DNA of 64,000 nucleotides from an uncultured Clostridium sp. (GCA_900552655.1 USAE01000001.1:3392-67391), one strand, 5' to 3'; shown: positions 55,402 through 55,607, counted from the stretch's first letter. Numbers and translations are program-made. The notes: generated by a model not told the origin, from the letters alone.

Positions 55402-55433
55402 CGGGATTTTTGGGACGGTCCTTAAAGTCCCTG
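55402..55433. repeat. GC-rich palindromic REP-like element, copy C (reverse orientation). It sits immediately 5' of copy 2 of the 150-nt element.
   Basis: CGGGATTTTT-GGGACGGTCCTTA-AAGTCCCTG followed by TTTCATTTTTTT. The stem contains a T-G wobble on the plus strand only. Confidence 0.65.
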
Positions 55434-55445
55434 TTTCATTTTTTT

Positions 55446-55607
55446 AAAAAAGCGAGCCTAAGATTTTCTAACAAATACAAATTTCAAGAAAATCTAAGGT
55501 TCGCTATAATTTTCTAGTACAAAAATTTCTCCTATTAGGAGAAGTTTTGTACTATATAATAAAAAAAAGAAAATTATAGCAATTATAATTTTCTTAATAT
55601 GTTTTTT
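55446..55607 (+). ncRNA. Copy 2 of the approximately 150-nt structured element.
   Basis: AAAAGCGAGCCtaaGATTTTCT..AGAAAATCtaaGGTTCGCtataatt ttcTAGTACAAAAATTTCTCCT-ATT-AGGAGAAGTTTTGTACTAtataat.., then GAAAATTATA-gcaat-TATAATTTTC plus a T-run. The stems contain G-U wobbles valid on the plus strand only. Confidence 0.55.

What the first reader, a model, noticed from the sequence alone, without database searches (positions are those of the whole stretch)
55402..55607. Composite intergenic module upstream of miaB and downstream of rpmE: a GC-rich palindrome, a T-run, the 150-nt element and a terminator.
The GC-rich hairpin (copy C) is followed by TTTCATTTTTTT, then immediately by copy 2 of the structured element, which ends in GAAAATTATA-gcaat-TATAATTTTC plus T's. 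The same two element types are juxtaposed again at 58217-58429 in the opposite relative order. Copy 2 contains a perfect TATAAT (gcTATAATt) just before hairpin 2. Repeated co-occurrence suggests the two element types travel or function together, for example as a promoter/terminator-insulated sRNA cassette or a small non-autonomous mobile unit.
Basis: seen in the sequence. Interest (0 to 1): 0.6.

Follow-up and report, generated by a model that had tools for sequence, protein, structure and literature searches.

The report
Two unrelated repeats beside rpmE's terminator
The "composite module" between rpmE and miaB is the gene's own old terminator with one copy each of two independent small repeat families inserted next to it; the families share a habitat at gene ends and do not form one unit.

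Summary
The interpretation of a coupled cassette does not hold.

- **Terminal hairpin (55569-55593).** This is the intrinsic terminator of rpmE on the minus strand, followed by 8 U. It is conserved in relatives that lack both repeats.
- **The "150-nt element".** This is a roughly 115-nt two-hairpin dispersed repeat. It has 3 full copies and 1 decayed copy in the window, and at least 15 sites in five other uncultured Clostridia MAGs. Base-pair covariation is strong, there is no Rfam match, and no promoter is conserved. The TATAAT varies between C and T at its first base.
- **The GC-rich palindrome.** This is a REP/SPRITE-like 28-nt unit found at more than 118 distinct sites in human-gut metagenomes. 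It is often in doublets, lies a median 15 nt after stop codons, and occurs in both orientations.
- **Co-occurrence.** The two families sit together only occasionally, in at least three different geometries, and at about the rate expected for two families that both settle in terminator-zone spacers.
- **The spacer.** Close relatives carry three different versions of the rpmE-miaB spacer, so it is an insertion hot spot.

On the rpmE strand the element's hairpin 1 plus U6 probably acts as a back-up terminator. That step is inferred, not shown. Verdict: ordinary in kind, but both families are undescribed.

The parts
55402..55433 (.). REP/SPRITE-like GC-rich palindrome unit. The core GGGATT..GGGACGGTCCTTAAAGTCCC is at 55403-55431, in canonical orientation on the plus strand.
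   Evidence: It belongs to a family with at least 118 distinct sites in gut metagenomes.
55434..55451 (.). T/A junction (TTTCAT, T7, A6). On the plus strand this is the T-rich tail of the palindrome. On the minus strand the A6 reads as the U6 tail of element hairpin 1.
   Evidence: T4 occurs downstream of 59 of 118 palindromes, against 12 of 118 for A4.
55444..55568 (.). Copy 2 of the roughly 115-nt two-hairpin dispersed repeat. The model orientation is plus; the functional strand is unresolved, and the minus strand is slightly favoured. Hairpin 1 is 55452-55504, the linker with TATAAT is 55505-55514, and hairpin 2 is 55515-55554.
   Evidence: CM R1 scores 131.7 bits. Covariation is shown. The copy is absent from sister lineages.
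55561..55593 (-). Intrinsic terminator of rpmE. The stem-loop is 55569-55593 and is followed on the minus strand by U8 (55561-55568).
   Evidence: It is conserved in all three spacer haplotypes, including those without either repeat.
55336..55364 (-). Putative miaB promoter, TTGAAA-17-TAAAAT.
   Evidence: 10 of 12 consensus positions. It is conserved in all haplotypes.
55654..55854 (-). rpmE (ribosomal protein L31).
   Evidence: PF01197.
53899..55311 (-). miaB.
30016..30140 (.). Copy 1 of the two-hairpin repeat, immediately after the mreB terminator (30135-30160, minus strand).
   Evidence: It is present or absent between lineages.
58214..58338 (.). Copy 3 of the two-hairpin repeat, in the convergent spacer between the PBP5-type carboxypeptidase gene and the HD-domain gene.
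   Evidence: It is fixed in all 8 places shown.
58334..58366 (.). Locus-specific bidirectional terminator-like hairpin (A6-GCATAcTAGA...TCTAaTATGC-T6).
   Evidence: read from the sequence.
58400..58427 (-). Palindrome unit, canonical on the minus strand, beginning a few nt after the HD-gene stop codon.
18006..18105 (.). Decayed copy of the two-hairpin repeat in another convergent spacer.
   Evidence: family D7; 22.6 bits.
12767..12794 (+). Palindrome unit between two glycosyltransferase genes.
19041..19068 (-). Palindrome unit 8 nt after the stop codon of the P-type ATPase gene, followed by TTGAATTTTT. It is probably that gene's terminator.
48282..48309 (.). Decayed palindrome unit.
48919..48947 (.). 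Decayed palindrome unit.

Best explanation
The region is a pile-up of three independent features in a spacer that tolerates insertions. It is not one module.

1. **rpmE's terminator (shown).** rpmE ends in its own ancestral intrinsic terminator, 55569-55593 plus U8 on the minus strand. Its stem is almost all A-T.

2. **The two-hairpin repeat (shown).** Directly after the terminator lies one copy of a roughly 115-nt dispersed repeat with two hairpins. The family occurs in several species of small-genome, uncultured gut Clostridia. It settles almost only in spacers that hold gene 3' ends. One end of the element always abuts a locus-specific terminator hairpin. Its stems are kept paired through compensatory changes.

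3. **The palindrome (shown).** Next lies one 28-nt unit of a REP/SPRITE-like palindrome family. These units sit just after stop codons in either orientation.

4. **miaB's promoter.** Beyond the palindrome comes miaB's conserved promoter-like site.

**Inferred mechanism.** Read on the rpmE strand, element hairpin 1 is a 17-bp stem with a G+C-rich base followed by U5-6. It would stop transcripts that read through rpmE's weak terminator, and so insulate miaB. The palindrome adds a terminator-like hairpin facing the other way.

**Inferred spread.** Both families spread or homogenise by an unknown route that is not MITE-like, and they persist because terminator zones tolerate them. They meet in the same spacer now and then because they share that niche.
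For: **Ancestral versus added parts.**
- Eleven close relatives with an identical L31 protein show three spacer haplotypes.
- The terminator and the miaB promoter are conserved in all of them. The element and palindrome occur in only one haplotype.
- The other haplotypes carry a different second hairpin plus T-run at the same place.

**Family status and structure of the element.**
- A genome scan found 15 loci in 5 MAGs. Some copies lie at contig ends, and some are truncated or internally deleted.
- The consensus has 34 pairs, 10 of them with compensatory changes in 12 full copies.
- Across 21 copies, 95% of cells are paired and 15 pairs change on both sides. None of 500 shuffles reached this, and the slid controls give about 45% paired.

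**Niche of the element.**
- Of the 16 copies with genes called on both sides, 8 lie in convergent spacers, 8 in co-directional spacers and 0 in divergent spacers.
- Only 3 of the window's 58 spacers are convergent.

**No known family and no promoter.**
- Rfam gives 0 hits at the gathering threshold and only noise at E up to 10.
- No promoter-like site is shared by the copies.
- There is no match in the phage or plasmid collections or in viral contigs.

**Palindrome family.**
- Among 118 distinct sites, the first two flanking positions covary: 79 Watson-Crick pairs against 53.5 expected, and 50 against 29.
- T4 occurs downstream in 59 of 118 sites, against 12 of 118 for A4. About 50 sites are followed by a second unit.
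- The median distance to a gene 3' end is 15 nt. Orientation splits 51 to 42. Divergent spacers are depleted.

**Independence of the two families.**; details are in the full report.

**Concerted evolution or subfamily amplification.** Stem variants are genome-specific, and an orthologous copy in two species differs mostly by stem changes.
Against: - **The functional strand is not resolved.** G.U and A.C mismatches number 9 and 10. The reverse strand folds better in 10 of 12 copies, by 3.4 kcal/mol on average, but this particular copy folds better on the plus strand. Gene context fits either strand, because so many copies lie between convergent genes.
- **No terminator activity was measured.** The simple terminator scan does not flag hairpin 1, whose loop is 17 nt, or rpmE's hairpin, whose stem is A-T rich.
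- **No clean empty site or target-site duplication was found.** The mreB 'empty' allele lies in a 93%-identity recombination tract and may be a deletion remnant.
- **The sites checked look old and fixed.** The HD-gene spacer and the spacers flanking the deacetylase gene have the same length in every place shown (8 and 3 places). Current mobility is therefore not shown.
- **Co-occurrence is not zero.** Depending on how remnants are counted, 5 to 7 independent sites exist. A weak real attraction, for example a preference of palindromes for existing hairpin or T-run sites, is not excluded.
Confidence: 0.6

Rival explanations
1. The two-hairpin element is a functional structured RNA in its own right. 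It could be a 3'-UTR cis element or a multi-copy trans-acting sRNA released from read-through or 3'-UTR transcripts. On this view its structure is maintained by selection on the RNA, and it is not merely a tolerated repeat.
For: - Covariation is strong in both helices.
- Loops, the linker and the inner stem of hairpin 1 are more conserved than the outer stem of hairpin 1 and the mid-stem of hairpin 2.
- A copy at an orthologous site in two species keeps its pairing through a compensatory T-A to C-G change.
- The element always lies next to a terminator, so it is likely to be transcribed as a 3' UTR in the convergent-spacer copies.
- Some sites have the same spacer length in every place shown.
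Against: - No promoter is conserved on either strand.
- G.U and A.C mismatches are equal in number, with none of the excess of G.U that a functional RNA strand would give.
- Many copies are truncated, internally deleted or decayed.
- Copy identity at the orthologous site (91%) is no higher than that of the flanks (90%).
- Genome-specific subfamilies point to amplification or gene conversion, which inflates covariation counts.
Confidence: 0.2
2. One reading: palindrome plus element form one unit. The unit would be either an sRNA cassette insulated by a terminator and driven by the internal TATAAT, or a composite mobile element that moves as a block.
For: - There are two juxtapositions in the window.
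- Further juxtapositions occur elsewhere: L075 (also sampled as L129 and L143), L112 and L124, plus a possible remnant in L002 and the palindrome inside a truncated copy in L108.
- With all spacers as the null model, P is about 0.01-0.02.
Against: - Most copies of each family occur without the other.
- The geometries differ. Seen are palindrome-T-run-element; element-terminator-palindrome-stop codon; and palindrome inside a truncated element.
- The sister species has a palindrome next to the same carboxypeptidase gene without an element.
- TATAAT is CATAAT in most copies, and the putative -35 region is the most variable part of the loop.
- No promoter-like hit is shared.
- The 'terminator' is rpmE's.
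- With spacers of at least 100 nt as the null model, P is 0.1-0.2.
Confidence: 0.05
3. Both families are purely DNA-level selfish elements, recognised as single-stranded DNA hairpins by a transposase. Candidates are a REP-associated tyrosine transposase for the palindromes and an IS200/IS605-like enzyme for the two-hairpin element. On this view they have no role in transcription.
For: - Palindromes occur as inverted doublets with fixed 8-nt spacers (TTCTAGAA or TCCTAGGA), like REPINs or BIMEs.
- Pairing is maintained symmetrically on both strands, with G.U roughly equal to A.C.
- Decayed copies exist.
- Subfamilies are genome-specific.
Against: - No transposase gene was seen next to any copy. 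Two roughly 540-nt stretches bounded by palindromes hold no ORF longer than 63 aa.
- The two hairpins of the element are unlike each other, whereas IS200/IS605 ends resemble each other.
- Only 1 of the 4 window palindromes has the GTAG tetranucleotide on its 5' side.
- The T-run asymmetry after palindromes fits terminator function.
Confidence: 0.15

Closest known systems
[quoted passage not shown] 2011, PMC3049150)
   Same: - These are small multi-copy intergenic repeats of a low-G+C Firmicute.
- They have a long duplex (about 18 bp) followed by a U-rich tract.
- They are strongly enriched close to CDS 3' ends.
- They are found in related species at varying copy number.
- Their effect is proposed to be termination or 3' stabilisation. 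These properties come from the paper.
- Here, hairpin 1 is 17 bp plus U5-6, and copies concentrate in convergent and 3'-end spacers.
   Different: - There is no sequence similarity.
- The element here has a second conserved hairpin and a conserved 17-nt loop.
- It always sits beside a separate locus-specific terminator.
- The host is an uncultured gut Clostridium.
REP / BIME / REPIN elements of Proteobacteria (my own knowledge: Bertels & Rainey 2011; Nunvar et al. 2010; Ton-Hoang et al. 2012)
   Same: The palindrome is a roughly 28-32-nt imperfect G+C-rich palindrome in an A+T-rich genome. It is extragenic, lies just after stop codons, occurs in both orientations, and is often in inverted or tandem doublets with a fixed short spacer.
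   Different: - No RAYT gene was found or searched for systematically.
- There is no conserved GTAG on the 5' side.
- The host is a Firmicute.
- About half of the units carry a T-run, like a true intrinsic terminator.
[quoted passage not shown]
   Same: MITEs are short, A+T-rich, structured, multi-copy, intergenic and non-coding, with decayed and truncated copies.
   Different: The two-hairpin element has no terminal inverted repeats; its two ends are unrelated. No unambiguous target-site duplication and no partner IS were found.
Stem-loop sequence families catalogued in bacterial genomes (Cozzuto et al. 2008, PMC2267715)
   Same: That survey describes the general class of repeated sequences sharing a secondary structure. 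It includes clusters in Clostridium perfringens and C. tetani.
   Different: The survey predates these MAGs. No link to the present sequences was tested.

Membership tests
Any Rfam 15 RNA family | A covariance-model score at or above the family's gathering threshold | tested here: not met
   There are 0 hits over the whole window. The best sub-threshold hits score 21 bits against thresholds of 80-100, and they are miRNA or snoRNA noise.
Independent sRNA gene | A conserved promoter upstream of the conserved RNA | tested here: not met
   No promoter-like site is shared by the three copies on either strand. Sequence upstream of the element is unrelated between copies. The TATAAT varies between C and T at its first base.
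Independent sRNA gene | An intrinsic terminator at the 3' end | tested here: inconclusive
   In plus orientation a hairpin follows every full copy, but it differs at each locus and is often another gene's terminator. In minus orientation hairpin 1 plus U5-6 is terminator-like, though its loop is 17 nt.
MITE | Terminal inverted repeats | tested here: not met
   The ends (AAAAAAGC... and ...CTACTATATAAAAAAG) are not inverted copies of each other. All pairing is internal to two separate hairpins.
MITE | Target-site duplication of fixed length | tested here: inconclusive
   Both ends carry (T)ATAAAAAAG(C), with copy-specific matches of 11 nt at copy 1 and 15 nt at copy 3. This cannot be separated from the A-tract of the neighbouring terminators. 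No clean empty site was found.
MITE | A partner IS with matching ends | not tested
   No transposase was seen next to any copy in the loci read. The ORF overlapping the truncated L001 copy has a GroEL-like C-terminal tail by eye. No complete genome was available to search.
REP / REPIN | A short imperfect extragenic palindrome in many copies | tested here: met
   There are at least 118 distinct sites. Four lie inside ORFs and the rest are intergenic.
REP / REPIN | Inverted doublets (REPINs) or clustered units (BIMEs) | tested here: met
   Inverted pairs with the spacer TTCTAGAA or TCCTAGGA occur in L059, L069, L100, L121 and L145. Tandem pairs occur in L038 and L093. About 50 of 118 units are followed by a second unit. 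The window's own copies are all single.
REP / REPIN | An associated RAYT (Y1/HUH transposase) gene flanked by REPs | not tested
   Only two palindrome-bounded stretches were inspected, and they hold no ORF longer than 63 aa. A genome-wide search was not possible.
SPRITE-like terminator-mimic repeats | A long duplex followed by a U-rich tract | tested here: met
   Hairpin 1 has 17 pairs and is followed by T5-6 on the reverse strand in all full copies. T4 lies within 12 nt after 59 of 118 palindromes.
SPRITE-like terminator-mimic repeats | Enrichment next to CDS 3' ends and depletion from promoter-bearing spacers | tested here: met
   Of the 16 element copies with genes called on both sides, 8 are in convergent spacers, 8 in co-directional spacers and 0 in divergent spacers. 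Palindromes lie a median 15 nt from a stop codon; 5 of 98 are in divergent spacers, against 77 of 746 in the background.
Intrinsic terminator of rpmE (55569-55593) | A stem-loop directly followed by a U-tract on the coding strand, downstream of the stop codon and conserved in orthologues | tested here: met
   It has a 10-bp stem and 5-nt loop, then U8 on the minus strand. It is conserved in all 11 aligned spacer sequences across 3 haplotypes. The stem has only one G-C pair, so the simple scan did not flag it.

The most novel reading that the evidence does not exclude
The roughly 115-nt two-hairpin element is a genuine new structured RNA family of uncultured, highly prevalent small-genome gut Clostridia. 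It would be a terminator-proximal 3'-UTR riboregulator or a multi-copy sRNA whose conserved 17-nt loop and linker bind a protein or a target RNA. The REP-like palindromes would then be recruited beside it as extra insulators.
Probability: 0.2. Interest if true: 0.5.

Novelty: new member of a known kind. Interest (0 to 1): 0.3.

Why it matters
The host is an uncultured Clostridium with a genome of about 1.7 Mb, and it is very common in assemblies. Its exact L31 protein is indexed in 10,575 blocks of the contig collection, and the palindrome loci come largely from human-gut metagenome assemblies.

Two practical points follow:
- Two undescribed repeat families break assemblies at contig ends (L006, L008 and L011).
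- They mark spacers that vary between lineages, which makes them useful for strain typing and for annotation. Without a model, these hairpins will be mis-called as sRNAs or terminators.

Biologically, they add a Clostridial example to the SPRITE/REP class of repeats that mimic or reinforce terminators. They also offer a simple test case, the weak A-T-only rpmE terminator backed up by a repeat, for whether such repeats are co-opted as insulators. This does not open a new kind of system.

Tried and rejected
- **Rfam.** The whole window at the gathering threshold, and both loci at E up to 10, gave nothing real. No tRNA or tmRNA gene was found.
- **Promoter idea.** The consensus scan at all three copies found no shared site. 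The internal TATAAT was rejected because it varies between C and T and because the presumed -35 falls in the most variable part of the loop.
- **Strand assignment from wobble pairs.** G.U and A.C mismatches number 9 and 10, which is uninformative.
- **Strand assignment from gene context.** I first read 15 of 18 copies as 'co-directional with the upstream gene'. I then saw that this figure is driven by the excess of convergent spacers, so I dropped it as evidence for a strand.
- **Target-site duplication.** The mreB filled and empty alleles are not a clean pair. The empty allele lies in a 93%-identity recombination tract and carries 25 nt that may be a remnant of the element.
- **Presence/absence at other sites.** The HD-gene and deacetylase look-ups returned the same spacer lengths in every place shown.
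- **Small peptide.** The only ATG in the element, giving MAYLRFS*, is not conserved (read by eye).
- **Group II intron domain, retron, attC or uptake-sequence origins.** These were considered from memory and dropped, because no defining feature is visible. They were not tested formally.
- **Phage or plasmid origin.** There is no match in the phage or plasmid collections. The element has no viral-contig hit, and the palindrome has only four.
- **RAYT search.** Two palindrome-bounded stretches of about 540 nt hold no ORF longer than 63 aa.

Full report
**1. What is there**

The window has about 26% G+C, and nearly all of its genes are on the minus strand. rpmE is at 55654-55854 and miaB at 53899-55311, both on the minus strand.

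- a G+C-rich palindrome at 55402-55433;
- TTTCATTTTTTT;
- a structured element (hairpin 1 at 55452-55504, TATAAT at 55505-55510, hairpin 2 at 55515-55554);
- the hairpin GAAAATTATA-gcaat-TATAATTTTC at 55569-55593.

The second juxtaposition, at 58214-58427, is also real. Pattern searches give 0.00 matches expected by chance for either repeat.

The window holds three full element copies, at 30016-30140, 55444-55568 and 58214-58338, and one decayed copy at 18006-18105. It holds four intact palindromes, at 12767, 19041, 55403 and 58400, and two decayed ones at 48282 and 48919.

**2. Ancestral parts and added parts**

The exact L31 protein is indexed in 10,575 blocks of the contig collection. Ten contigs of 1.0-1.85 Mb from close relatives were fetched. 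Aligning their rpmE-miaB spacers with the window's shows three haplotypes.
- **Type I** (the window, L018, L022; 342 nt) has the element and the palindrome.
- **Type II** (212 nt) has neither. It carries an unrelated hairpin followed by a T-run (ACTGTGGGG...CCACAGTTTGTTTTT).
- **Type III** is type II plus an unrelated 129-nt insertion.

Two things are conserved in all three:
- The terminal hairpin with its U-tract on the rpmE strand. It is therefore rpmE's own intrinsic terminator and not part of the repeat.
- A TTGAAA-17-TAAAAT promoter-like site in front of miaB.

The element and the palindrome are thus lineage-specific additions to a spacer that has taken different insertions in different lineages.

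**3. The structured element**

*Distribution.* An exact-pattern scan of one genome per species found 15 loci in five uncultured Clostridia MAGs. Some copies sit at contig ends, as multi-copy repeats do. Some are truncated after hairpin 1 or have hairpin 2 deleted.

*Extent.* The conserved unit is about 115 nt. What follows it is a different hairpin at every locus.

*Structure.* RNAalifold on 12 full copies gives two hairpins with 34 pairs, 10 of which show compensatory changes. On 21 copies aligned to the model, 95% of cells pair and 15 pairs change on both sides. No shuffle out of 500 reaches this, and sliding the partners drops pairing to about 45%. The truncated copies inflate the helix-2 counts, because the alignment is fitted to the model.

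*Not a known family.* Rfam has no family for it. It has no match in the phage or plasmid collections or in viral contigs.

*No promoter.* No promoter-like site is shared by the three window copies on either strand. The TATAAT is CATAAT in most copies. The hexamer 17 nt upstream of it lies in the most variable part of the hairpin-1 loop.

**4. Where the element sits, and on which strand**

Of the 16 copies with genes called on both sides, 8 lie between convergent genes, 8 between co-directional genes and none between divergent genes. Only 3 of the window's 58 spacers are convergent, and two of those three hold a copy.

The hairpin-2 end always abuts a locus-specific terminator-like hairpin. On the reverse strand, hairpin 1 is always followed by T5-6.

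The functional strand is not settled:
- G.U and A.C mismatches number 9 and 10.
- The reverse strand folds better in 10 of 12 copies, by a mean of 3.4 kcal/mol. The rpmE-miaB copy is one of the two exceptions.

**5. Evolution of the element**

*The mreB site.* Some strains lack copy 1. In those strains the sequence to the right of the site is a recombination tract at 93% identity, while the left side is 100% identical. The 'empty' allele keeps 25 nt that are about 70% like the element's first bases. This is not a clean insertion site, and no target-site duplication can be read from it.

*Fixed sites.* The HD-gene spacer and the spacers flanking the deacetylase gene have the same length in every place shown (8 and 3 places).

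*Orthologous copies.* Copies at an orthologous site in two species (L014 and L015) are 91% identical, while their flanks are 90% identical. The differences fall mostly in the stems, and one T-A to C-G change is compensatory.

*Subfamilies.* Stem variants are genome-specific. GGTTCGCTATAATT predominates in one MAG and GGCTCGCCATAATT in another. This indicates subfamily amplification or gene conversion.

**6. The palindrome**

They yield 118 distinct sites.

*Stem and tail.* The first two positions flanking the core covary: 79 Watson-Crick pairs against 53.5 expected, and 50 against 29. The stem is therefore two variable pairs longer than the core. T4 follows within 12 nt at 59 sites, against 12 sites for A4.

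*Doublets.* About 50 units are followed by a second unit. Inverted pairs are separated by TTCTAGAA or TCCTAGGA.

*Position.* Units lie a median 15 nt from a gene 3' end. Orientation splits 51 to 42, and divergent spacers are depleted.

*In the window.* The unit at 19041 lies 8 nt after the ATPase stop codon, with no other hairpin before the next gene, so it probably serves as that gene's terminator.

Taken together, this is a REP/BIME- or SPRITE-like family. Whether a REP-associated transposase exists was not tested.

**7. Do the two families belong together?**

*Element-anchored loci.* None of the 15 element loci matches the strict palindrome pattern. A looser search finds palindromes in those MAGs, but 1.3 kb or more from the elements. 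The Hamming scan of the 150-nt flanks finds nothing above background there. A 9-mismatch remnant that abuts the L002 copy was aligned by eye.

*Palindrome-anchored loci.* The model finds 8 distinct element-like copies in the 812 kb of these loci. Three of them are within about 100 nt of a palindrome: L075 (also sampled as L129 and L143), L112 and L124. In L108, a palindrome sits inside a truncated element copy.

*Independence of the sites.* L075 and L112 involve different genes from those at the window's two sites.

*Geometries.* At least three arrangements are seen:
- palindrome, T-run, element, terminator;
- stop codon, palindrome, terminator, element;
- palindrome interrupting an element.

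*The sister species.* It has a palindrome next to the same carboxypeptidase gene without any element.

*Statistics in the window.* The probability that at least 2 spacers are shared by chance is 0.01-0.02 with all spacers as the null model. It is 0.04-0.07 for spacers of at least 60 nt, and 0.1-0.2 for spacers of at least 100 nt.

The simplest reading is a shared niche. Palindromes settle just after stop codons and elements settle beside terminators, so they sometimes end up in the same spacer.

**8. How it most likely works**

*Shown.* The parts, their family status, their niche, the maintained pairing, and the ancestral terminator and promoter.

*Inferred.* rpmE's terminator stem has a single G-C pair, so it is probably leaky. 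On the same strand the element supplies a 17-bp hairpin with a G+C-rich base and U6. The sister lineages carry a different hairpin plus T-run at the same place. This suggests that a second terminator before miaB's promoter is useful. The palindrome adds a terminator-like hairpin facing the opposite direction. None of this was measured.

**9. Comparison with known systems**

The closest described systems are the pneumococcal SPRITE, BOX and RUP repeats (PMC3049150, read) and REP/BIME/REPIN elements (my own knowledge). The element fails the MITE test for terminal inverted repeats. For REP membership, the transposase criterion remains untested. Both families appear to be undescribed, but they are new members of a known kind.

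**10. Verdict**

The coupling, cassette and promoter ideas are not supported, while the idea that these are dispersed repeats is. Interest is 0.3.

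Noticed in passing
L017:4318-4446 (also L019, L020, L024); window 22821-22865: Type III haplotypes of the rpmE-miaB spacer carry an unrelated 129-nt insertion. It begins with a 36-nt hairpin, TTGTATAGTAAAAATCatcaGATTTTTACTATACAA. Parts of it match L107, L130 and window 22821-22865 (78% over 45 nt), so it may be a third repeat family. It has no Rfam hit.
   Followed up: partly
window 55604-55653: The window's lineage has about 50 extra nt between the rpmE stop codon and its terminator. They include a small hairpin, AAATAGC-ttttg-GCTATTT, at 55626-55644. 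The sister haplotypes lack this stretch.
   Followed up: no
window 27212-34216 compared with L029: Identity is mosaic around mreB. It is 100% upstream of the element site and 92-94% for about 1.6 kb downstream (the 116-aa ORF and the start of the RecD2-like helicase). The recombination-tract boundary therefore coincides with the presence/absence site of the element.
   Followed up: partly
L001:3590-3679: A 545-aa ORF, GroEL-like by its Gly/Met-rich C-terminal tail (judged by eye), ends in a stop codon (TAG) that lies inside a truncated element copy (...ATGTACTAG). The repeat appears to have replaced or supplied the end of the gene.
   Followed up: no
L005:2700-2790: A partial second copy of the element (a hairpin-1 remnant plus CATAATTCTTTAGTACAC) lies in tandem directly upstream of a full copy.
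   Followed up: no
L148:275-812 and L052:573-1121: A roughly 540-nt stretch bounded by two palindrome units holds no ORF longer than 63 aa. It may be non-coding DNA or an RNA gene framed by palindromes.
   Followed up: partly
L108:3560-3640: The sequence directly after a gene stop codon is the 5' half of element hairpin 1, then a palindrome unit, then T7. A palindrome has replaced the rest of an element copy.
   Followed up: partly
window 55946-56110 (minus strand); L016-L025 3746-3910: A 54-aa ORF with no Pfam hit lies just upstream of rpmE. It is called in all ten related contigs.
   Followed up: no
window 1494-1573, 11358-11437, 12436-12515 and 6827-6909, 11586-11668, 12663-12745: Repeat families D2 and D3 are 64-75% identical stretches inside or beside the glycosyltransferase genes at 1-13 kb. 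They are most likely paralogous coding sequence and not intergenic repeats.
   Followed up: no
window 48966-48986: A G+C-rich hairpin, GGTGGCG-tttaaca-CGCCACC, followed by TTTT lies 20 nt from the decayed palindrome at 48919. It looks like an ordinary terminator in the same spacer.
   Followed up: no
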